NCBI GenBank assembly: GCA_964426145.1
Contig: CAYRPW010000002.1
Span: 1-24,933, forward strand
Reading direction: 5' to 3'
DNA from: an uncultured Oscillospiraceae bacterium
GTDB taxonomy: Bacteria > Bacillota > Clostridia > Christensenellales > Aristaeellaceae
DNA length: 24,933 nt
Part shown: piece after piece, positions 16,236 through 24,933 of the stretch
How the letters are laid out: the number at the start of each line of letters is the position of its first letter
Numbering within the stretch: position 1 is the stretch's first letter
Program-made: the position numbers and the translations under genes
The notes under the pieces: model-generated
What the model saw: the letters and a program-made list of their open reading frames with translations, nothing else
Database searches by the model: none
Told to the model about the DNA's origin: nothing

Positions 16236-17753
16236 ATGGGTGAGAAGAACCAGAACCAGACCCAGATCGAAAAGCTCATTGAAATGGCTAACCAGCTGGA
16301 GCAGCGGGAGCTTGCGCTCAGCCGGGAGACCCGGTACCTGGAGGAAATGAAGGCGTCGCTGGAAGCGCAGGAGAAGAAATTCTCCGCCGTCAAGGCGGAG
16401 CGCCCCGAAGGAGTGTTCCAGGAGGGGCAGGCTCCGCAGCCTAAGCCTGTGCTCCGGGAAAAACCAATAGGCCAGCCCGCGGCGGAGGTGCAGCCCGCAC
16501 CTAAACCCGCAGTGCGCCAGGCGGCTGCCGCGCCCGCGTCCCAGCCCGTACGGCAGGCTGCCGCCGCGCCCGTATCCGCGCCCCAGCCCATGCGCCAGGC
16601 GGCTCCCGCGCCCGTATCCGCGCCGATGGCCGTATCCGCGCCTGCCGCGCAGAAACCCGTGCCGCAGAAATCCGCCGCCGATGCCGTTACGGAAATCAAC
16701 CAGATTTTGCAGTCCATTTTCTGGGACTATTCCAACAGCGTACACCAGATCAGCTCGCAGCTATCCACGGTAACGGCGGCCATGATGTGCGCGGCGGTGA
16801 CCTGCGTGCTGGAAAACCGCGGCTTCAACACCAAGGACGTTTTCCTGCAGGAAATGGAAAAGCTGCTGCAAAGCGGCGGTTTTGGCAGCTCCTGCGGCGT
16901 TGCGGCGGAACGCCCCGCGCGGCCTGCGCCTGTAACCCGGCCTGCCGCGGAAACCCCCGCGCCGGCGGCGGCCAAACCATACGCTCCCGCCGTTGCCGTT
17001 CCCGCCCCCAAGCCCCCCACGCTGGACGCGGATGAGGACGACGACGACGTTATGGCCGCGGGCGGCATGCCGATGCCCCAGCAGCAGGAGGCGGGCGTCG
17101 TGCGGATCAACAGCCTGTCGGAATTCCAGAAACTCGGCGAATACGGCTTCCGCAACGATGAGAAAATCGTCCGCGTGGAACTTCCGGAGGGCGTGCAGCA
17201 TCTGCCGGGGAGCTTCTTCTACGGCTGCAGCAACCTGGTGGAAGTATGGCTGCCGGACTCGCTGCAGGAAATCGGGCCCTACGCGTTCTACGGCTGCGAA
17301 TCTCTGGAGACCGTGCATATGAGCGACAACGCCACGCTTTTGGAAATCGGCGAGTATGCGTTTGCCATGTGCTCGTCGCTTGTGTCGTTTACGGTTCCGG
17401 CCTCGGTGGAAACGCTGGGCACCAGCGTGTTCCGCTTCTGCGCGAAGCTGGAAAAAGTAAGCTTCTCCCGGGAGAGCAAGCTGCAGACCATCGGCAGCCA
17501 CCTGCTGCAAAACTGCACGGCGCTGGATAAGATGCGCCTGCCCGATTCCATTGCCGTGATCCCCACCAGCATGTTCTACGGCTGTTCCAGCCTGAGAAAG
17601 GTGGTTGCCAAGGGCGTGGATACCATCGAAGACTACGCCTTCTACGGCAACGAAGCGCTGCGCCTCATCCGCATCCGCACCAAGAAGAGCATATCGGCCC
17701 AGGCGTTTGAAGGCTGCGATCCGTCCCTGGAAATCGAGTACCTGAATTATTAA
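16236..17753 (+). CDS. BspA/TpLRR-type leucine-rich-repeat protein with N-terminal coiled coil and Pro/Ala-rich linkers
   Basis: About 8 repeats of LxxVxLPxSLxxIGxxAFxGCxx at 17166-17750. The ATG at 16236 after AGGAG is preferred over the track's GTG at 16215. No signal peptide is visible. Confidence 0.85.
   Translation: MGEKNQNQTQIEKLIEMANQLEQRELALSRETRYLEEMKASLEAQEKKFSAVKAERPEGVFQEGQAPQPKPVLREKPIGQPAAEVQPAPKPAVRQAAAAPASQPVRQAAAAPVSAPQPMRQAAPAPVSAPMAVSAPAAQKPVPQKSAADAVTEINQILQSIFWDYSNSVHQISSQLSTVTAAMMCAAVTCVLENRGFNTKDVFLQEMEKLLQSGGFGSSCGVAAERPARPAPVTRPAAETPAPAAAKPYAPAVAVPAPKPPTLDADEDDDDVMAAGGMPMPQQQEAGVVRINSLSEFQKLGEYGFRNDEKIVRVELPEGVQHLPGSFFYGCSNLVEVWLPDSLQEIGPYAFYGCESLETVHMSDNATLLEIGEYAFAMCSSLVSFTVPASVETLGTSVFRFCAKLEKVSFSRESKLQTIGSHLLQNCTALDKMRLPDSIAVIPTSMFYGCSSLRKVVAKGVDTIEDYAFYGNEALRLIRIRTKKSISAQAFEGCDPSLEIEYLNY
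16512..16643 (+). repeat. In-frame tandem repeat encoding (V/M)RQAA(A/P)AP(V)S(A)(PQ)P
   Basis: Units at 16512-16547, 16548-16589 and 16590-16625, plus a partial unit at 16626-16643; shared cores CAGGC and CCGTATCCGCGCC. Confidence 0.8.
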
Positions 17754-17846
17754 GCGGGCGTCGGGCGGCGGGTAACGCGGCCCGCCATTGCGCACAGGCG
17801 GCTTGGCCGCGTCAAACAGGCGGCCGGACCGCCAATCGTGGAATGG

Positions 17847-17873
17847 AGATTGGGAGCCGCGGGCTCCCAATCT
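17847..17873 (+). terminator. Strong hairpin just upstream of the SMP-30 ribosome-binding site
   Basis: Perfect 12-bp stem AGATTGGGAGCC / GGCTCCCAATCT with a GCG loop, followed by TTGT. It ends 5 nt before the SD (GGGAGGA). Confidence 0.55.
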
Positions 17874-17888
17874 TTGTCGGGAGGATGT

Positions 17889-18767
17889 ATGCGTCAGTAT
17901 CCGGAAGCGGAACTCTTGCTGGACGCGCAGGCGGTGCTGGGGGAAAGCGCGTTGTGGCGCGCACAGACGCAGGCGCTTCACTGGGTGGACATTGTGAAAG
18001 CCGAGGTGCACACGCTGCGCGTGCCCACCATGAAACACACGTGGTTTTCCACCGCCCAGGCAACGGGCGCCATCGTACCCGCGCCGGACGGCGGCTTCGC
18101 CGCGGCGCTGGCCACGGGGTTTTACCGGCTGGACAGCCGGGGCCCCGTCCGCCGCATTGCCGAGCCGGACGGCCTGGTGCCGATGTTTCGCTGTAACGAC
18201 GGCAAGTGCGACCGCCTTGGCCGGTTTTGGGCGGGCACGCAGATCCTGCGCGACGAAATGAAGGGCCGCGGCTTTTTCTGGTGCCTGGATACGGACGGCA
18301 CCGTGCGCACGGCGCTTACGGGCATTACCACGTCCAACGGCCTTGCCTGGAATGCGGACGATACCGTGCTGTATTACATCGATACGCCTACGTTCCGGGT
18401 CACGGCCTTCGATTTTGATCTGGAACACGGCACGCTTGGCGCGGGGCGGGTCTGCGTGAGCGTTCCCGAAGCGTACGGCTACCCGGACGGCATGACCGTC
18501 GACCGGGAGGGCATGCTTTGGGTTGCGCATTGGATGGGCGGCGCCGTGCGGCGGTATGACCCGCGCACGGGCGCGTGCATCGGCGTGCTTCCGGTTCCCG
18601 CGTCCAAGGTCACCAGTTGCTGCTTCGGCGGCCCGGACCTCGATATTCTCTACATCACCACCGCCCGGGAAGAGACCGTCGCGGCGGACGAGCCCCTTGC
18701 GGGCGGCATCTTCCAGGCCCGCGTCGGGGTGAGCGGGTACGAGGCGTTTTTCTACCGGGGAATATAG
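17889..18767 (+). CDS. SMP-30/gluconolactonase/LRE-family protein
   Basis: LGESALW, LHWVDI, RCNDGKCDRLGRFWAGT, SNGLAW, LYYIDT, PDGMTVDREGMLWVA and VTSCCFGG motifs. Start moved to the ATG at 17889, which follows the SD GGAGGA. Confidence 0.93.
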   Translation: MRQYPEAELLLDAQAVLGESALWRAQTQALHWVDIVKAEVHTLRVPTMKHTWFSTAQATGAIVPAPDGGFAAALATGFYRLDSRGPVRRIAEPDGLVPMFRCNDGKCDRLGRFWAGTQILRDEMKGRGFFWCLDTDGTVRTALTGITTSNGLAWNADDTVLYYIDTPTFRVTAFDFDLEHGTLGAGRVCVSVPEAYGYPDGMTVDREGMLWVAHWMGGAVRRYDPRTGACIGVLPVPASKVTSCCFGGPDLDILYITTAREETVAADEPLAGGIFQARVGVSGYEAFFYRGI

Positions 18768-18800
18768 CAGCGCAGCGCCTGTACGTGCTGTGCAAGAATC

Positions 18801-18830
18801 AAAAAGCCGCGGCATTTCGCCGCGGTTTTT
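18801..18830. terminator. Bidirectional Rho-independent terminator
   Basis: AAAAAGCCGCGGC-ATTTC-GCCGCGGTTTTT between convergent genes. Confidence 0.85.
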
Positions 18831-18880: not shown

Positions 18881-21013
18881 TTAGTCCGCGTCCGCCGGCG
18901 GCGCGGCGTACGCCGCGCGGTAGGCTTGGGCAAGGCCCGCGTCCAAAACGTAAATGCGCATGCTGCCTTCCTCGATCACCTGGTCGTCCGGGAGGGTGGC
19001 AAGGTAGTCGCTGAGCGTGGATTCGGCAAAGAAACGGTTGTCCCAGAAATCCGGTTCGGTCGCCACGGCGGCAACGTTCCACTTCGCAAGCTCGCCGGGG
19101 ATTTCGGCAAGCGAAAGGTTTAACAGCGGCGCGACGGGGTTGGCGGTCAGCAGCAGCGCGCGGGAGTGAATGGGGTACTGGTAGCTGTCCCGGGTGATCA
19201 GCAGGTTCTGGCCGTCCTCAAGCAGCGCGCTGAAGCGCATCAGCGCGCCGTACCGGGTTTGCATATAGTTGTCCTGCGCGTACAGCGGGTCGGTAAGCGT
19301 CGGGCGGCCATAGCGGTAAAAGCTCGCGGAGTAGCCGGTTTCCCGGATGCCTTCCGCAAACCAGCCCACGCACAAAAGCGCGCACGCGAAGGCGGGGATT
19401 TGTTTGGTCCACAGCGGGCAGGACGCGCGCTTCGCCTTTTTCTGCACGAAGGCTTGAATCGAAGGCCATTTGTCCTCCAGGTACGCGCCCGCCGCGGCGA
19501 TCATCACGCACGCGAACAGGTACCACTGCAGCGTGTAGCGCTGGAGCTTCAAAAACGTGCCGGAAAAGCTGTAGAAGCTCGTATCCAGCAGGCCCGTCAT
19601 CGGCGCGAGGGTGAACAGCGTCATCAGGGCGATCATCAGCGGGGTCAGGTCGGGCGCGGGCTGCAACAGCGCCGCCTGGCTGCGCCTGCGCCGCCACAGC
19701 AGCCAGAGTAACCCGCACAACAGCGCGCACAGCGCAAGCCGCAGCCCCCAAATTCCCACGGGCGTGGCGTACGCCATCACGATGTCGTATTTCGCTTCCC
19801 AGAAGTTCAGGCTCGTGGTGGTTTCCTCCAGCCGGTATTCCATGCGCAGGTAGGTGTCAAACCACGGCGCGCTTGTAAACGTGTTCAGGATGCGAAACGG
19901 CGACAGCTCCCCCCACGTCCGGTAGCACCAGAGGTTGCCCGAGAAGGCGAGCAGCACGCCCGCCGCGCCGCTCAGCGCCACGCCCGCGGTTTTGAAAAAC
20001 GCCGGGACCGGCTTCTGCTTTTGCAAAACGGCTTCCGTGAATACGGCGATCGCCCAGGCGGCCACGAGGAAGGGAAGCACCACGAAGCACACCACGTGCG
20101 CGCTCATCACCGTAAAGCAAACCGCGAACGAAAATAAAAGCGCGGGCAGGTATCGCCATCCCTTGCCGGGCCGCAGATCGATAAACGCAAGCGCCGCCAG
20201 AACAAGCGCAAGGCAGCGCCAGGTATCGCGCGGGGCGCTCGCCACGGAAAACACAAGATTAGGAACGAGGTTCAAAAGCAGCAGCGCGGGCATCAGCCAC
20301 CGGAGTTTTCCCCGCAGCACACGCAGGCACAGCGCGACGAACGCCGCCAGCAGATAGAAAACCAGCATGCCGACCGCCGTGAACATGGGTTTGTCGTAGG
20401 GGTATCCGGCAACGCCCGCGTTATGCATCAGCCCGTAGGCCATGTACAGCTCCAGCGACGGAAAGTGCGCGTTTCCGCGGTAATCCGTCTGCGTGTCGGC
20501 CTTGGTAAACAGGGCCTCGGTATCGCGGTCCTCGGTATAGCGCAGGGCCAGGCCCATAAACTCGCCGGAGTCGGCCTGGGCGGAGATCGTGGAGGTCGCA
20601 AACCGGACGCACATAGGCGTCAGCAGCAGAAGCATCGCCAGCGCCAGCGCGGCCGATACGGCCGCCGCCCGGTCGAACTGGATTTTCCGGACCGCCGCAA
20701 ACCCGCCCCGGAGCAGCGCTATGAAGCGTTTGCGGATTTTGAACAGCAGGAAGCAAAGATAGAAAGCCGCGGCCAGCGGCGGCACGCCAACGTACACAAG
20801 CTGCGGCGCGGCGGGCCATAAAAGCGCGAGCACAAGCATCCACAGGTACTGGGCAAACGGCGTCGCCGCCGCGCCTGTCAAAAACGCCGCTACGCGGTGC
20901 TCCCGCATCCAGCGTTTGCGCGTGGCAAAAGCAAAACCCAGCGCCGCGGCTTGCGCAAGGCAGCTCAGCAAAAACAGATTGCGCCATCCGTTTCCAAGGT
21001 CCAGCCAGGTCAT
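18881..21013 (-). CDS. Large polytopic membrane protein, probable GT-C-fold (lipid-linked-donor) glycosyltransferase-like
   Basis: Start moved to the ATG at 21013 (SD GAAGGA); 710 aa. Many TM segments, an acidic external loop (QADSGEFMGLA, AHFPSLELY) and a soluble C-terminal domain. The membrane-protein call is secure; the GT-C call is inference. Confidence 0.6.
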   Translation of the reverse strand: MTWLDLGNGWRNLFLLSCLAQAAALGFAFATRKRWMREHRVAAFLTGAAATPFAQYLWMLVLALLWPAAPQLVYVGVPPLAAAFYLCFLLFKIRKRFIALLRGGFAAVRKIQFDRAAAVSAALALAMLLLLTPMCVRFATSTISAQADSGEFMGLALRYTEDRDTEALFTKADTQTDYRGNAHFPSLELYMAYGLMHNAGVAGYPYDKPMFTAVGMLVFYLLAAFVALCLRVLRGKLRWLMPALLLLNLVPNLVFSVASAPRDTWRCLALVLAALAFIDLRPGKGWRYLPALLFSFAVCFTVMSAHVVCFVVLPFLVAAWAIAVFTEAVLQKQKPVPAFFKTAGVALSGAAGVLLAFSGNLWCYRTWGELSPFRILNTFTSAPWFDTYLRMEYRLEETTTSLNFWEAKYDIVMAYATPVGIWGLRLALCALLCGLLWLLWRRRRSQAALLQPAPDLTPLMIALMTLFTLAPMTGLLDTSFYSFSGTFLKLQRYTLQWYLFACVMIAAAGAYLEDKWPSIQAFVQKKAKRASCPLWTKQIPAFACALLCVGWFAEGIRETGYSASFYRYGRPTLTDPLYAQDNYMQTRYGALMRFSALLEDGQNLLITRDSYQYPIHSRALLLTANPVAPLLNLSLAEIPGELAKWNVAAVATEPDFWDNRFFAESTLSDYLATLPDDQVIEEGSMRIYVLDAGLAQAYRAAYAAPPADAD

Positions 21014-21055
21014 GCGGTTTCCTTCTTTCGGCTGTGCTGATCGCGTTCGGTTTTC

Positions 21056-21085
21056 AGTATATCGTTCGCGGGGCGGGGTTGTCAA
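21056..21085 (-). promoter_or_regulatory. sigmaA promoter for the large membrane protein gene
   Basis: Minus strand: TTGACA (21085-21080), 18 bp, TATACT (21061-21056). Confidence 0.7.
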
Positions 21086-21221: not shown

Positions 21222-22355
21222 ATGCTGCAGATCCGCTTCATTGAAAACATAGACCTTCTTTTGTTCAGCACGCTTCTCAATGCGATCATGTTCTGGTTTT
21301 TGCACCGGCAGAAAAGCAGGCAGAGCCATTCCACGAAGCTGTTTGAGCAGATGCTTTTATCCGTCGCCGCGGCGGGCTTTTTTGAAACGATCGCCTGGAT
21401 ATTCGCCATGCCGGAGGGCGCCGCGTTCCGGCCGCTGCATTACGCGGGAAACGTTCTGTTCTTCTCGTTCAACCTGCTGCCTGCGGCGCTGGGCCTCCGG
21501 TATCTGGATTACCTGGTTACCCTGTCCAAGGAGAAAAGCAAACGCAGACAATGGGTTTACTTGGCGCCGGTGATCATGAACGTCGGGTTTGTGATCGTCA
21601 ATCTGTTTTCGGACGGGTTCCTGTTTCGCATCGACGCGGAAAACGCCTACCACCGGGGCATTGCGGTGTATATCGGCAACGCCGCCACGCTATTTTTCGC
21701 GGTTGCCGTCGTGCTCTCGTTTTTCCGCAACCGGCAGCTGATCACCGGCCGCGTCACGCAGGTTATCCTCACGCTTACGCTGCTGCCCATCCTCGGGGTG
21801 GTGCTGCAGACGCTGTTTTTCGGATTGTCGTTCGGCATACCCGGCTATACGCTGGGTATTTTCATTTGCTTTCTGCTGATGGAGCGCGACGAGCTGCTCA
21901 AGGACCCGCTGACGCTGTTGAATTCCCGCGTGCAGATGGAAAACCGGCTGATGTACAAAATCAAATCCCGGGAACCCTTCACCGCCATTATGATCGACGT
22001 GAACGGGTTTAAGAACATCAACGATACCTTCGGCCACGCCATCGGCGACGAGGTGCTTAAGGACGTTTCCCGCATCCTGTTATCCAGCGCGAATTTCGAG
22101 GATTTCGTCTGCCGCTTCGGGGGCGACGAATTTTTCGTGATTCTCGAATCGCCCAAGGACATCGGCCAGTCCTACATCAAGCGGATCGACCAGATTCTTA
22201 CGGATTATTCCGCGGGCAAGCCCTTCGCAACGGGGCTGAGCTTCGGCTGTGTGTACGTCAACCACACCGTGCCTTACGACGTGGAGGAGCTGGTGAATTT
22301 GACCGACCAGCTGATGTATAAGGACAAGGAAAACCGCAAGCGGGAGTGTTTATAA
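21222..22355 (+). CDS. Membrane-bound diguanylate cyclase (GGDEF) with multi-TM sensor N-terminus
   Basis: About 6-7 TM helices; KDPLT, IDVNGFKNINDTFGHAIGDEVL and intact RFGGDEF; SD AGAGGA. Confidence 0.93.
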   Translation: MLQIRFIENIDLLLFSTLLNAIMFWFLHRQKSRQSHSTKLFEQMLLSVAAAGFFETIAWIFAMPEGAAFRPLHYAGNVLFFSFNLLPAALGLRYLDYLVTLSKEKSKRRQWVYLAPVIMNVGFVIVNLFSDGFLFRIDAENAYHRGIAVYIGNAATLFFAVAVVLSFFRNRQLITGRVTQVILTLTLLPILGVVLQTLFFGLSFGIPGYTLGIFICFLLMERDELLKDPLTLLNSRVQMENRLMYKIKSREPFTAIMIDVNGFKNINDTFGHAIGDEVLKDVSRILLSSANFEDFVCRFGGDEFFVILESPKDIGQSYIKRIDQILTDYSAGKPFATGLSFGCVYVNHTVPYDVEELVNLTDQLMYKDKENRKRECL

Positions 22356-22498
22356 GATACTCTGTAATTATTCCGCCCGCGCCGTGCGGCAAGGTTTCCA
22401 TAGGATTCCGCAAGCGGTTTCCCTGCGGTTCGCGCGGTGACCGGCGGCGCGGCGGCGTGTTTCGGCGGGTAAAAACGAAAAAAATGCACGCGGGCATC

Positions 22499-22527
22499 TT
22501 TACAGATGCCCCGCATTCGTGTACGAT
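22499..22527 (+). promoter_or_regulatory. Promoter for the mannanase fusion gene
   Basis: TTTACA (22499-22504), 17 bp, TACGAT (22522-22527). The -35 lies inside the inverted repeat GGGCATCT-TTAC-AGATGCCC (22492-22511). Confidence 0.55.
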
Positions 22528-22621
22528 AGAGTTACAATAAACCTATAAACTAGCTAACTGGTTAACAAACCGGTACTTGGGCGGTGCGGCACACTGCGGG
22601 CGAAAGCGAGTGGGCACGGGA

Positions 22622-24933
22622 ATGAAAACGTTTGAGGCGTTGCGGAGGGCGATCTTTGTGTTTGCGCTGCTTGCCTTGCTGCTTGCGCCTTTCTTCGCAT
22701 CATGCGCCGAACCCGCCGTTTTTGAAGCCGAAAGCGGCGCGCTGCTGGGCAACGCGACGCTGGGCAGCGCCGGGGGCGTTCAATACGCGGAAAACCTGCG
22801 GGCGGACGGCGACGGCGTGGATATCCCCGTCACCGTTGCCACGGACGGCTTTTACGACCTCACGGTGCGGCAGGCAAGCGTAGACGGCAGCTACAAGGAA
22901 AACTACGTAAACGTCGACGGCGCGATGGCGGGCACGGTCAGCATTCAGGGCACGGCCTTTGCCGACACGGTGCTGGAACGCCTGTACCTCGCACAGGGAA
23001 CCCACATTGTTTCCATCCGGAAATACTGGGGCTGGGTCAAGATCGATTATGTTTCGCTGTCCGCCTCCCCGCCGCTCAGAGAGGGGCTGTTCCAAATCGA
23101 GCCGCAGCTTGTGAATCGGAACGCATCCGCCAATGCGCGCCGCCTGATGAATTATCTGTGCGATATCTACGGCACGAAAATCCTCTCGGGCCAGTACTGC
23201 GACGGCGGGATGTTCGGCATGGAAAACGCCGCCATCTGGCGCGCAACGGGCGGCAAATTTCCCGCGGTGCTCGGGCTGGACCTGATCGACTATTCCCCCT
23301 CCCGCGTGGAAAACGGCAGCGTTTCCAAGGCGACGGAGTACGCGGCAGAATACTGGAACGCGGGCGGCATCGTGACCCTGACCTGGCACTGGAACGCGCC
23401 GGCAAAGTATCTCACCGGCATCTGGTACAAGGGCTTTTATACCGATCAGACCAACATCAACCTCGCCGCCATCATGAACGGAAACGATGCCGAGGGCTAC
23501 GCGCTGCTGCTTTCGGATATCGACGCGATCGCAGAGCAGCTGAAGGTTTTGCAGGCCGCGGATGTGCCCGTGCTGTGGCGGCCGCTGCACGAGGCAAGCG
23601 GCGGGTGGTTCTGGTGGGGCGCGCAGGGGAGCGAAGCCTATGTGCGGCTCTACCGGCTGCTGTACGACCGGCTGACCAATCTGCACGGCCTCGATAACCT
23701 GATCTGGGTGTGGAACGGGCAGGACGCCGCCTGGTACCCGGGCGACGACGTGGTGGATATCATCGGCGAGGACATTTACCCCGGCGAGCGCGTGTATACG
23801 CCGCAAACCGCACGGTTTATCAAGGCCACGCAGTATACGGATGCCAGCAAGCTGATCGTCCTTTCCGAAAACGGCTGTTTGTTCGACCCCGACCTTGCCC
23901 TGCGCGACGGCGCCATGTGGGGGCTGTTTTGCACCTGGGGCGGCGAGTTCGTGCTGGAAAACCGGGCGTTCAACGATCTGTCCGAGCAGTACACCGAGGC
24001 GGCCATGGTGCGCAAGGTGTACGAAAGCGATCTGGTGATCACCCGCGCCGATCTGCCCGATCTGAAAACCTACCCCCTGCCGGAAGTTGCCGCGGAACCC
24101 GCGCAGACCGGGGAAACCGCCGCGCAAACCGCTTCCGGTTCTGCGGACAAAACGATGGCGGAGTACCTGGACCTCGTCAGCACCTATTCCATCGATAATT
24201 CGGTACCTGAATACCCGCAGTACGCAAGCGGCGCGCAATCCGGCGGCGCGCAGCCCGCAATCGAGATCGCGGCGAACGCGTATGTCCGCTACGAGGAGGA
24301 TGGCAGAACCGTTTACCCTATCCTGATGACCGGCTACGAAGGGATGAACGGCACCGCCGTGCTGACGGGCGAGGACGCGCTGATTGCTTACCATGTGTCC
24401 GTCCCGCAAAACGGCTGGTACGACATCTCCCTCACCTATTTCCCCGTGGAGGGGAAAAACGCCGCCATCCAGCGCGCGGTGCTGATCGACGGAACGCTTC
24501 CCTGCAAGGAACTGGCGCTGGTGGAGTTCCGCCGCGTTTGGGCGAACACCGAGCTTTTGCCTTCCCCGGATTCCAACGGCGTTTCCGTGATCGCCTGGAC
24601 GAAGGATAACCAGGGCAACGAGCTGAAACCCTCGCCGTTTGAAACGCCCGTGTGGATGACGTCCAAGCTGTACGACCAGAACGGCTATATCGCCGAGCCC
24701 CTGTCCGTGTACCTGACGGCGGGCGAGCATACGCTCACGCTTCTGTCGCTGCGCGAGCCGATGCTTCTGTATAGCATCACTTTGGGCGGGCGGGAGGAGA
24801 CCCTTTCCTATGCGGCCGTCAAGGCCGAAGCGGACGCCGCGGGCGCGAAGGATACTGCCGGGCAATCGGTCCGCATCGAGGCGGAAAACGCAGTGCGCAC
24901 ATCCTCCCAGATGCTCTACCCCAGGCAGGAGCA
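22622..24933 (+). CDS. Signal peptide - CBM35-like - GH26 beta-mannanase - linker - large ABC solute-binding-protein-like N-terminal module (runs off right edge)
   Basis: Not in the ORF track. Manual translation shows no stop in this frame from 22622 to the window end (>770 codons). CBM35-like FEAE...KYWGWVKIDY; GH26 motifs ILSGQ, WHWNAP, WRPLHEASGGWFWWG (acid/base Glu at 23591) and LSENG (nucleophile Glu at 23867). After about 24155 the sequence reads YSIDNSVPEY, YFPVEGKNAAIQR, KDNQGNELKP, GEHTLTLLSLREPM and IEAENAVRTSSQMLYP. Confidence 0.9.
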   Translation, partial: MKTFEALRRAIFVFALLALLLAPFFASCAEPAVFEAESGALLGNATLGSAGGVQYAENLRADGDGVDIPVTVATDGFYDLTVRQASVDGSYKENYVNVDGAMAGTVSIQGTAFADTVLERLYLAQGTHIVSIRKYWGWVKIDYVSLSASPPLREGLFQIEPQLVNRNASANARRLMNYLCDIYGTKILSGQYCDGGMFGMENAAIWRATGGKFPAVLGLDLIDYSPSRVENGSVSKATEYAAEYWNAGGIVTLTWHWNAPAKYLTGIWYKGFYTDQTNINLAAIMNGNDAEGYALLLSDIDAIAEQLKVLQAADVPVLWRPLHEASGGWFWWGAQGSEAYVRLYRLLYDRLTNLHGLDNLIWVWNGQDAAWYPGDDVVDIIGEDIYPGERVYTPQTARFIKATQYTDASKLIVLSENGCLFDPDLALRDGAMWGLFCTWGGEFVLENRAFNDLSEQYTEAAMVRKVYESDLVITRADLPDLKTYPLPEVAAEPAQTGETAAQTASGSADKTMAEYLDLVSTYSIDNSVPEYPQYASGAQSGGAQPAIEIAANAYVRYEEDGRTVYPILMTGYEGMNGTAVLTGEDALIAYHVSVPQNGWYDISLTYFPVEGKNAAIQRAVLIDGTLPCKELALVEFRRVWANTELLPSPDSNGVSVIAWTKDNQGNELKPSPFETPVWMTSKLYDQNGYIAEPLSVYLTAGEHTLTLLSLREPMLLYSITLGGREETLSYAAVKAEADAAGAKDTAGQSVRIEAENAVRTSSQMLYPRQE

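What the first reader, a model, noticed from the sequence alone, without database searches (positions are those of the whole stretch)
22622..24933. GH26 beta-mannanase fused in frame to a giant ABC solute-binding-protein-like module
Seen: one open frame, missed by the ORF track because it has no stop in the window. It runs signal peptide, CBM35-like domain, complete GH26 with both catalytic Glu, an Ala/Thr/Glu linker (about 24075-24155), then >250 aa more with no second signal peptide or good SD. Recognised from memory, not from a search: the extra region (YSIDNSVPEY; YFPVEGK..AIQR..LIDG; KDNQGN.LKP; G.HTLT..SL.EPM; IEAE...TSSQMLYP) matches the CBM-like N-terminus of the ~900-1000-aa solute-binding proteins that head Firmicute glycan ABC-uptake loci. 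Inference: a single surface protein that binds mannan, cuts it and hands oligosaccharides to the transporter, a 'selfish' capture device.
Basis: partly seen in the sequence, partly recalled or inferred. Interest (0 to 1): 0.8.

Follow-up and report, generated by a model that had tools for sequence, protein, structure and literature searches.

The report
Mannanase fused to giant ABC receptor
This is a real gene, conserved in one genus of anaerobic-digester and gut Clostridia, in which a secreted mannan-cutting enzyme is joined in one ~1,477-residue protein to the oversized sugar-binding receptor of an ABC importer, so the cutter and the catcher of plant mannan fragments are physically tethered.

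Summary
Window 22622-24931 is one open frame: signal peptide, CBM35, GH26 with both catalytic Glu (E324, E416), a 19-aa linker, then a CBM-like beta-sandwich. The window is a whole contig. Contig C357 overlaps its end (three synonymous differences) and carries the frame on to about 1,477 aa, through a second CBM-like module, a helical bundle and an SBP_bac_1/8 domain, followed by ABC permeases.

It is not a misassembly. Four other species of the genus (sources name it Candidatus Limiplasma) have the same uninterrupted 1,486-1,503-aa open frame, independent public contigs bridge the junction, and the fused proteins form one clade (100/100).

Other Clostridia show the unfused state: a 510-aa CBM35-GH26 gene 11 nt upstream of a 1,009-aa SBP. 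The fusion replaced the stop codon, the spacer and the SBP's signal peptide with a linker.

The operon continues with two permeases, NHL/TPR, Yip1, DUF5696, two permeases, a CBM65 protein, a second SBP, a GH130 mannooligosaccharide phosphorylase and LacI. That makes it a beta-mannan utilisation locus.

No other fusion was found in 400 sampled Clostridia genomes, and no paper describing one was found. Handing cleavage products directly to the receptor is inferred, not shown. The scan had already noted the stand-alone giant SBP cassette in at least 55 other genomes, but none of the 16 notes shown described this fusion.

The parts
22499..22527 (+). Promoter-like site: TTTACA, 17 nt, TACGAT
   Evidence: It is the only sigma-70-like site found in 22200-24933. 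Both hexamers are conserved upstream of the orthologous genes in G021 and G017.
22552..22565 (+). Conserved block AGCTAACTGGTTAA containing the inverted repeat TAAC-TG-GTTA; candidate operator
   Evidence: The block is identical in the upstream regions of the window, G021 and G017. A LacI-family regulator closes the operon. The operator role is inferred.
22622..22711 (+). N-terminal signal peptide (aa 1-30); a lipobox-like pattern ends at Cys28
   Evidence: This is the only hydrophobic segment of the protein. A PROSITE-type lipobox pattern matches here and in P0006 but not in five other fused orthologues.
22715..23059 (+). CBM35 module (aa 32-146)
   Evidence: Pfam PF16990, E 7e-16. It aligns with the CBM35 of 3zm8. 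The AF2 model is a beta-sandwich with pLDDT of 92 or more.
23111..24079 (+). GH26 endo-beta-1,4-mannanase catalytic domain (aa 164-486). E324 is at 23591-23593 and E416 at 23867-23869
   Evidence: Pfam PF02156, E 1e-73. PDB 3zm8 E 3.9e-92 and 6hpf E 4e-76. Foldseek target-normalised TM-score 0.94 and rmsd 1.5 A to 6hpf. Both catalytic Glu are conserved. It is 60.5% identical to the stand-alone GH26 of L021 up to that protein's last residue.
24080..24136 (+). Pro/Ala/Glu/Thr-rich interdomain linker (aa 487-505): the fusion joint
   Evidence: It has no homology to either unfused partner. pLDDT is below 50 for aa 493-505. Length and sequence vary among orthologues but the frame is always kept. 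A public contig carries an in-frame 21-nt insertion behind 24128.
24137..24826 (+). First CBM6/35-like beta-sandwich module of the giant SBP (aa 506-735)
   Evidence: aa 506-1477 of the merged protein are 66.5% identical to residues 32-1004 of L021's stand-alone SBP. AF2 gives a beta-sandwich for aa 512-725, most of it at pLDDT 77-97. It is 24% identical to module 2 (E 4e-6), and module 2 is 27% identical to the GH26's CBM35 (E 2e-6).
24854..24931 (+). Start of the second CBM-like module, cut by the contig end. It continues on contig C357 (L004:2-2245) with a helical bundle and the SBP_bac_1/8 domain
   Evidence: The overlap with C357 is 123 nt with 3 A>G differences that leave the protein unchanged. 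The same three variants are linked to the GH26 part in an 1,800-nt public contig. The SBP domain is at P0003 aa 346-637. Fold match to CUT1 SBPs, Z 13-15.
21222..22355 (+). Upstream neighbour: GGDEF-domain membrane protein (377 aa); syntenic, not part of the operon
   Evidence: Pfam GGDEF, E 4e-31. A GGDEF gene also lies just upstream of the GH26 gene in L020. A 376-aa ORF lies in the same position and strand in G021, though no domain scan was run on it.

Best explanation
The window ends inside the first gene of a beta-mannan utilisation operon. That gene arose by fusion of two formerly adjacent genes: a secreted CBM35-GH26 endo-beta-1,4-mannanase and the ~1,000-aa 'giant' CUT1-type solute-binding protein that heads a conserved ABC-importer cassette. 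The fusion removed the mannanase's stop codon, the short spacer and the SBP's own signal peptide, and put a flexible 19-aa linker in their place. Both halves are therefore exported by the single N-terminal signal peptide. Outside the cell, the CBM35 and the two CBM35-like modules are expected to hold mannan, and GH26 to cut it by the retaining mechanism (E324 acid/base, E416 nucleophile). The C-terminal SBP lobe pair, tethered a few nanometres away, would capture the manno-oligosaccharides and dock on the permease pair encoded next. In the cytoplasm the GH130 phosphorylase would degrade the oligosaccharides, and the LacI-family protein would regulate the operon. Shown: the architecture, its conservation, its origin from adjacent genes and the operon content. 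Inferred: enzyme activity, ligand specificity, and that proximity improves capture (a covalent, Gram-positive analogue of 'selfish' uptake).
For: The frame is open and its domains are as stated. It continues on C357 to a stop, with an SBP domain and then a permease start. Four other species carry the whole 1-770 query in one 1,486-1,503-aa frame without stops, at 70-87% identity. Five fused proteins of 1,467-1,485 aa sit on independent contigs of up to 232 kb. Public-run contigs bridge the joint, and one has an in-frame 21-nt indel in the linker. Among orthologues GH26 is 78-93% identical, the SBP domain 88-95% and the linker 37-63%, with both catalytic Glu invariant. The fused proteins form one clade with 100/100 support. 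The unfused adjacent state exists in L021, and homology runs exactly up to the stop codon and resumes just after the signal peptide. The G017 operon runs fused gene, 2 permeases, NHL/TPR, Yip1, DUF5696, 2 permeases, CBM65 protein, SBP2, GH130, LacI, and the same pieces are in the window's own genome. A complete genome of another family has the same gene set, with a separate CBM35-GH26 next to GH130. The AF2 model of the window's protein has pLDDT 90.7 and its GH26 part matches solved mannanases. The C-terminal part matches oligosaccharide SBPs at Z 13-15.
Against: No activity, binding or expression data exist. The join to C357 rests on a 123-nt overlap with 3 mismatches plus one public contig, not on a closed assembly. 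The AF2 model of the SBP half is poor (pLDDT 54.7). The SBP's nearest solved relatives bind other glycans (Lin1841 E 2e-12; the mannobiose binder CpMnBP1 only E 2e-4), so mannooligosaccharide specificity is inferred from context alone. Surface retention is unresolved: only 2 of 7 fused proteins and 3 of 111 stand-alone giant SBPs show a lipobox pattern. The operon also has a second, ordinary SBP and a second permease pair, so the giant SBP may not be the main oligosaccharide receptor. The fusion occurs in only 5 of 25 species of the genus, which is consistent with a modest or niche-specific benefit.
Confidence: 0.65

Rival explanations
1. The fusion is selectively neutral, an accident of losing a stop codon between two co-transcribed genes. 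The two halves work independently, as they do in the unfused loci, and tethering gives no capture advantage.
For: Unfused loci with the same gene set are far more common. The fusion is confined to one clade and to 5 of 25 species of the genus. Linkers are long and flexible.
Against: The frame is kept across species 70-87% identical despite repeated indels in the linker, including an in-frame 21-nt variant. The SBP half has lost its own signal peptide, so it now depends on the fusion for export.
Confidence: 0.2
2. The gene acts as a polyprotein. After export by the single signal peptide, a protease cuts the exposed linker, releasing a free mannanase and a free giant SBP that then behave as in the unfused loci.
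For: The linker is disordered and Pro/Ala/Glu/Thr-rich. Stand-alone giant SBPs normally work without a lipid anchor.
Against: No conserved cleavage motif is visible in the linker alignment. Such linkers are typical of stable multi-modular glycoside hydrolases (general knowledge of CAZyme architecture).
Confidence: 0.1
3. In the fused protein the SBP part no longer delivers ligand to the permeases. It serves instead as a binding or docking module, effectively a large CBM or an anchor to the transporter complex, while the second, ordinary SBP of the operon does the transport.
For: The operon has a second 458-aa SBP and a second permease pair. The giant SBP carries two CBM-like modules suited to polymer binding.
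Against: The SBP domain is the most conserved part of the protein (88-95%). It is 66% identical to stand-alone SBPs that directly precede a permease pair in every locus examined.
Confidence: 0.1
4. The open frame is an assembly chimera or a sequencing frameshift that artificially joins two genes.
For: The genome is a fragmented MAG of 514 contigs, and the window ends inside the gene. One long-read-like metagenome contig (L020) has the two parts called as overlapping genes in different frames.
Against: Five independent assemblies of different species give the same single frame. Contigs from two further runs span the joint. L020 also has other fragmented genes, and its SBP nests inside the fused clade, which suggests indel errors in that assembly.
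Confidence: 0.02

Closest known systems
Roseburia intestinalis beta-mannan utilisation locus (surface RiGH26, RiMnBP solute-binding protein, ABC permeases, intracellular GH130s), as summarised in PMC8262883; the primary paper, La Rosa et al. 2019 Nat Commun, is cited from my own knowledge
   Same: It is a Gram-positive system. A cell-surface multimodular GH26 endo-mannanase makes oligosaccharides, a CUT1 ABC transporter captures them through an extracellular SBP, and GH130 phosphorylases degrade them inside the cell. The authors call it a 'selfish' mechanism.
   Different: There the GH26 and the SBP are separate proteins, the SBP is of ordinary size, and the GH26 carries other CBM families (from my own knowledge, not checked here). 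Here the two are one polypeptide. The SBP is about 970 aa with two CBM35-like modules and a helical bundle. The locus also contains NHL/TPR, Yip1 and DUF5696 genes, a second permease pair and a second SBP.
Stand-alone 'giant SBP' cassette of Clostridia (giant SBP, 2 permeases, NHL/TPR, Yip1, DUF5696, 2 permeases, second SBP). It is uncharacterised and annotated only as 'extracellular solute-binding protein'
   Same: The C-terminal ~970 aa are 65-68% identical to these proteins, and the downstream gene order is the same. Mannan-type versions also carry CBM35-GH26 and GH130 genes.
   Different: In those loci GH26 is a separate gene, either 11 nt upstream (L021) or about 13 kb downstream (G295, G244, G145), and the SBP has its own cleavable signal peptide. 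Here that signal peptide has been replaced by a linker to GH26.
Podospora anserina PaMan26A (PDB 3zm8), a CBM35-GH26 endo-beta-1,4-mannanase
   Same: It has the same two-module CBM35 + GH26 arrangement, aligned over aa 31-478 (E 3.9e-92, Foldseek E 1.7e-45). The catalytic motifs are conserved.
   Different: It is a fungal secreted enzyme that ends after the GH26 domain and has no transporter component.
CUT1 oligosaccharide-binding proteins with solved structures: Lin1841 (5ysb), cycloisomaltooligosaccharide-binding protein (9xfu), RafE (6pql), CpMnBP1 (4r9f)
   Same: They share the SBP_bac_1 fold of the last ~420 residues (phmmer E 2e-12 to 5ysb; VIA Z 13-15).
   Different: They are 380-450-aa single-domain receptors, and sequence identity is only 15-21%. 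Ligand specificity cannot be transferred from them.
Bacteroidota SusCD 'utilisomes', in which surface glycanase and glycan-binding proteins assemble on the transporter (from my own knowledge, not checked here)
   Same: The logic is the same: the polymer-cleaving enzyme is held next to the receptor that feeds the importer, which limits loss of products.
   Different: Those are non-covalent outer-membrane complexes with TonB-dependent transporters, and the proteins are unrelated. Here the link is a covalent fusion to an ABC receptor in a Gram-positive-type lineage.

Membership tests
GH26 (glycoside hydrolase family 26, endo-beta-1,4-mannanase) | Significant match to the family profile | tested here: met
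   PF02156, 248.6 bits against a cut-off of 20.2, aa 164-449.
GH26 (glycoside hydrolase family 26, endo-beta-1,4-mannanase) | Two catalytic glutamates (acid/base and nucleophile) in the conserved motifs | tested here: met
   E324 (LHEA) and E416 (SENG) align with the HEA and AEVG motifs of 3zm8. Both are invariant in seven fused proteins. That these motifs hold the catalytic residues is family knowledge.
GH26 (glycoside hydrolase family 26, endo-beta-1,4-mannanase) | (beta/alpha)8 barrel fold | tested here: met
   AF2 model pLDDT 90.7. Foldseek target-normalised TM-score 0.94 and rmsd 1.5 A to the GH26 mannanase 6hpf.
GH26 (glycoside hydrolase family 26, endo-beta-1,4-mannanase) | Hydrolysis of beta-1,4-mannan | not testable with these tools
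   This needs an enzyme assay.
CBM35 | Match to the family profile and a beta-sandwich fold | tested here: met
   PF16990, 59 bits against a cut-off of 28, aa 32-146. The model is a beta-sandwich. For the two internal modules the only support is weak pairwise similarity (E 2e-6 and 4e-6) and one related Atlas cluster in which 67% of members carry Pfam CBM_35.
CUT1 / SBP_bac_1 ABC solute-binding protein | Match to SBP_bac_1 or SBP_bac_8 profiles above the cut-off | tested here: met
   P0003 (contig C357): 63.8 and 64.2 bits against cut-offs of 26 and 27. The G017 orthologue matches at aa 1081-1368.
CUT1 / SBP_bac_1 ABC solute-binding protein | Two-lobe periplasmic-binding-protein fold | tested here: inconclusive
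   VIA-align Z 13-15 to many CUT1 SBPs over aa 326-743 of P0003, but the model of that region is of low confidence (pLDDT mostly below 50).
CUT1 / SBP_bac_1 ABC solute-binding protein | Encoded next to a pair of BPD_transp_1 permeases | tested here: met
   A permease start follows on C357 and two permeases lie on C336. The same holds in G017, G021, L021, L022 and G295.
CUT1 / SBP_bac_1 ABC solute-binding protein | Lipoprotein anchor, usual for Gram-positive SBPs | tested here: inconclusive
   The lipobox pattern is present in the window's protein (Cys28) and in P0006, absent from five fused orthologues, and present in only 3 of 111 stand-alone giant SBPs.
CUT1 / SBP_bac_1 ABC solute-binding protein | Binds the transported oligosaccharide and delivers it to the permeases | not testable with these tools
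   This needs ITC or SPR and transport assays.
Gram-positive beta-mannan utilisation locus (R. intestinalis type) | Extracellular endo-mannanase, an SBP-dependent ABC importer, an intracellular GH130 phosphorylase and a regulator in one locus | tested here: met
   G017 operon. Pieces in the window's own genome on C2, C357, C336, C200, C407 and C223. The reference model is described in PMC8262883.
Gram-positive beta-mannan utilisation locus (R. intestinalis type) | Accessory enzymes (acetyl esterases, alpha-galactosidase GH36, mannobiose 2-epimerase, GH113 or GH3) | not tested
   None lies within the G017 operon as read. The rest of the genome was not searched for them.
Giant-SBP / NHL / Yip1 / DUF5696 double-permease cassette (uncharacterised) | Gene order: giant SBP, 2 permeases, NHL/TPR, Yip1, DUF5696, 2 permeases, second SBP | tested here: met
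   G017, L021 and L022, G295, and pieces in the window's own genome.

The most novel reading that the evidence does not exclude
The fusion is a natural 'Rosetta stone'. It would show that the anchor-less giant SBPs of the widespread, unstudied NHL/Yip1/DUF5696 cassette work at the polymer itself, side by side with the depolymerase. In Limiplasma, selection would have made that partnership covalent, giving a single-polypeptide Gram-positive 'utilisome' that channels freshly cut manno-oligosaccharides straight into an ABC importer.
Probability: 0.35. Interest if true: 0.8.

Novelty: new variant of a known kind. Interest (0 to 1): 0.6.

Why it matters
Gram-positive bacteria have no periplasm, so oligosaccharides released by a surface enzyme can diffuse away to competitors. 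How they limit that loss is an open question in gut and digester ecology. A natural covalent tether between an endo-mannanase and the ABC receptor offers a clean experimental system: the fused protein can be compared with its split halves to test whether proximity alone improves capture.

The fusion also gives a functional handle on a very common cassette for which I found no published description. Its stand-alone SBP alone has clusters with more than 12,000 member sequences. The fusion ties one subtype of the cassette to beta-mannan, together with GH130.

The architecture could also serve as a template for engineered enzyme-receptor fusions in biomass-converting strains.

Tried and rejected
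1. Misassembly or frameshift at the joint. Rejected on five independent assemblies and on public-run contigs.

2. Contig C336 as a simple continuation of C357. The two share only 79 nt at 96% identity and their intergenic regions differ. I take C336 to be the same operon from a strain variant, because its permeases are 89-93% identical to G017's.

3. Exhaustive representative search with the window's protein. The best 150 hits were CBM35-GH26 enzymes or SBP N-termini. Among them I saw none whose listed best stretch joined a GH26 to a giant SBP. The fused family's own cluster did not show up as a separate representative.

4. AF2 of the C357 half. The model was poor (pLDDT 54.7), probably because the alignment is over 70% identical throughout. 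Only module 2, the helical bundle and a coarse SBP fold could be used.

5. Foldseek on the whole P0001 model. GH26 hits dominate, so module 1 could not be given a specific CBM family. Later rows are long, loose alignments to proteins containing CBM6 or CBM35.

6. NCBIfam. It gave no informative equivalog for either half.

7. Literature. 'DUF5696' returned no papers. Searches combining GH26, solute-binding protein, fusion, carbohydrate-binding module and N-terminal extension found no description of this architecture. Papers mentioning Limiplasma are taxonomic or microbiome surveys.

8. Anchor-sharing as the reason for the fusion. Considered but not supported, because most fused orthologues lack a lipobox.
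Full report
**Observation**

The window is a complete 24,933-bp contig (C2) of a 514-contig, 2.6-Mb metagenome-assembled genome that is 91% complete. One frame is open from ATG 22622 to the last full codon, 24931. Its 770 residues contain:
- An N-terminal hydrophobic signal, the only hydrophobic segment in the protein.
- Pfam CBM_35 at aa 32-146 and Glyco_hydro_26 at aa 164-449.
- The motifs LHE324A and LSE416NG, which align with the catalytic motifs of the solved CBM35-GH26 mannanase 3zm8 (E 3.9e-92).
- A Pro/Ala/Glu/Thr-rich stretch at aa 487-505 (nt 24080-24136).
- A further 265 residues with no Pfam hit.

The AF2 model of these 770 residues is confident (mean pLDDT 90.7). The exception is aa 493-505, which fall below 50, as expected for a flexible linker. 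Residues 512-725 form a beta-sandwich. The GH26 part superposes on solved mannanases, with a target-normalised TM-score of 0.94 to 6hpf.

**Continuation beyond the window**

Contig C357 overlaps the last 123 nt of the window with three A>G differences, and these leave the protein sequence unchanged. C357 continues the frame for another 706 residues to a stop, giving a merged protein of 1,477 aa. That part contains:
- A second beta-sandwich module.
- A helical bundle of about 110 residues.
- An SBP_bac_1/SBP_bac_8 domain at P0003 aa 346-637.

The coarse fold of the SBP part matches CUT1 oligosaccharide-binding proteins at Z 13-15. That model is weak, however (pLDDT 54.7).

The N-terminus of an ABC permease follows on C357. 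The rest of the operon lies on small contigs C336, C200, C407 and C223 of the same genome.

**Is the fusion real?**

Yes, on five lines of evidence.
- Four other species of the same genus carry the whole 1-770 query in a single open frame of 1,486-1,503 aa, with no stops, at 70-87% identity. One of these lies on a 110-kb contig.
- The large protein collection holds five fused proteins of 1,467-1,485 aa, each with precomputed CBM_35, GH26 and SBP domains. Their sources name them Candidatus Limiplasma sp. or Clostridiales.
- Contigs assembled independently from public bioreactor and wastewater runs cross the joint. One 1,800-nt contig covers 23203-24933 and beyond without gaps, and carries the three C357 variants. 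Another covers 24009-24267 with no differences. A third, from a different study, has an in-frame 21-nt insertion inside the linker.
- Among fused orthologues the GH26 domain is 78-93% identical and the SBP domain 88-95%. The linker is only 37-63% identical and varies in length, yet the frame and both catalytic Glu are always kept.
- On a maximum-likelihood tree of the SBP part, the fused proteins form one clade with 100/100 support, which is compatible with a single fusion event.

**Origin**

In another Clostridia genome (L021) a 510-aa CBM35-GH26 lipoprotein gene ends 11 nt before a 1,009-aa stand-alone SBP gene. Comparison with the merged protein gives:
- Residues 27-486 are 60.5% identical to that GH26, up to its last residue. 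This is more than to any of the 150 best representatives, none of whose long matches over the GH26 part exceeded 59% identity.
- Residues 506-1477 are 66.5% identical to that SBP, starting at its residue 32, just after the signal peptide.

The fusion therefore replaced the stop codon, the spacer and the SBP's signal peptide with the linker. The SBP half now depends on the mannanase's signal peptide for export.

In a complete genome of a different family (G295) the same gene set occurs in another order: LacI, giant SBP, two permeases, NHL/TPR, a 207-aa ORF at the Yip1 position (not scanned), DUF5696, two permeases, a second SBP, CBM35-GH26, GH130. Two further genomes have a related GH26 about 13 kb from a giant SBP on the same contig.

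No additional fusion appeared in 400 Clostridia genomes drawn evenly from the class. Within the genus, 5 of 25 species have it.

**What the locus does**

In G017 the operon reads: fused gene, 2 permeases, NHL/TPR protein, Yip1 membrane protein, DUF5696, 2 permeases, a protein with three CBM65 modules, an ordinary 458-aa SBP, a GH130 beta-1,4-mannooligosaccharide phosphorylase, and a LacI-family regulator. The window's own genome has the same SBP-GH130-LacI tail on C223.

This matches the logic of the characterised Roseburia intestinalis mannan system: a surface GH26, a specific ABC importer and intracellular phosphorylases, described as a selfish mechanism (PMC8262883).

A promoter-like site at 22499-22527 and a conserved block containing TAAC-TG-GTTA at 22552-22565 precede the gene. 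Both are conserved in two orthologous loci. The fused gene therefore probably opens the operon, possibly under LacI control, which is an inference.

**Mechanism proposed**

- Shown: architecture, origin, conservation and genomic context.
- Inferred: after Sec export, the CBM35 and the two CBM35-like modules hold mannan. Module 2 is 27% identical to the enzyme's own CBM35 (E 2e-6), module 1 is 24% identical to module 2, and one related Atlas cluster has Pfam CBM_35 in 67% of its members.
- Inferred: GH26 cuts the mannan, and the SBP lobes, tethered by the linker, capture the products and dock on the adjacent permeases.

The benefit would be a high local product concentration at the receptor and fixed 1:1 stoichiometry.

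Surface retention is unresolved. The window's protein and one orthologue match a lipobox pattern, while five orthologues and 108 of 111 stand-alone giant SBPs do not.

**Rivals**

- A neutral fusion with no capture advantage (0.2).
- A polyprotein cleaved in the linker after export (0.1).
- An SBP part that serves only as a binding or docking module, while the second SBP does the transport (0.1).
- An assembly artefact (0.02). The one contig where the two parts are called as separate overlapping genes (L020) also has other fragmented genes, and its SBP nests inside the fused clade.

**Comparison and novelty**

Each half is a member of a known family: GH26 with CBM35, and the CUT1 SBPs. The giant-SBP cassette has already been noted by this scan in at least 55 other genomes. 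I treated those notes as leads and re-tested what I used: the module structure, the absence of a lipobox, the gene order and the GH26 neighbourhood.

None of the 16 notes shown (of 61 holding the search words) describes an in-frame GH26-SBP fusion, and I found no paper describing one. Databases annotate these proteins simply as 'extracellular solute-binding protein'.

I rate it a new variant of a known kind. It is of moderate-to-high interest as a natural test case for enzyme-receptor proximity in Gram-positive glycan capture, and as a functional clue to an unstudied cassette.

Noticed in passing
L005 (G000:C336) 1-370 versus L004 (G000:C357) 2246-2555: The intergenic region between the fused gene and the first permease is completely different on the two overlapping contigs. 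Only 79 nt at the permease start match, at 96%. The C357 version is rich in GC-rich inverted repeats. This may be strain heterogeneity, and it may explain why the assembly breaks here.
   Followed up: partly
window 24128 (linker): A wastewater-metagenome contig from another study carries an in-frame 21-nt insertion (7 codons) that nearly repeats the neighbouring AAEPAQ-coding sequence. The linker appears to evolve by in-frame duplication.
   Followed up: partly
L020 6509-10901 (ENA contig of 295 kb): A close relative's GH26 (517 aa) and SBP (966 aa) are called as genes overlapping by 62 nt in different frames. The NHL and DUF5696 genes on the same contig are also fragmented, which suggests indel errors in that assembly rather than a true split.
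   Followed up: partly
G000:C200 893-3486 and G000:C223 2459-3855: In the window's own genome the DUF5696 gene and the second SBP gene each match their G017 orthologues as two separate tblastn pieces. These may be frameshifts or local divergence. I did not examine them.
   Followed up: no
G018:C11, G027:C3, G008:C100, G017:C17 (loci L012, L013, L016): A second, distant type of giant SBP (955-1,131 aa, about 30% identical over module 1) exists in the genus and its order, sometimes alongside the fused gene. The giant-SBP family therefore has deep paralogues.
   Followed up: no
window 22552-22565: The block AGCTAACTGGTTAA, containing the inverted repeat TAAC-TG-GTTA, lies just downstream of the promoter-like site and is identical in three species. 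It is a candidate operator for the LacI-family regulator at the end of the operon.
   Followed up: partly
window 16761-18815 (-) and 18881-21085 (-): Two large predicted proteins (684 and 734 aa) upstream of the locus have no Pfam match at E 0.001. The 734-aa one reads as hydrophobic over much of its length.
   Followed up: no
L024 15384-17144 (G017) and L021 21392-23030: A secreted protein with three CBM65 modules is a conserved member of the mannan-type cassette, between the second permease pair and the second SBP. CBM65 is known, from my own memory, for binding xyloglucan and beta-glucan, so its role in a mannan locus is unexplained.
   Followed up: no
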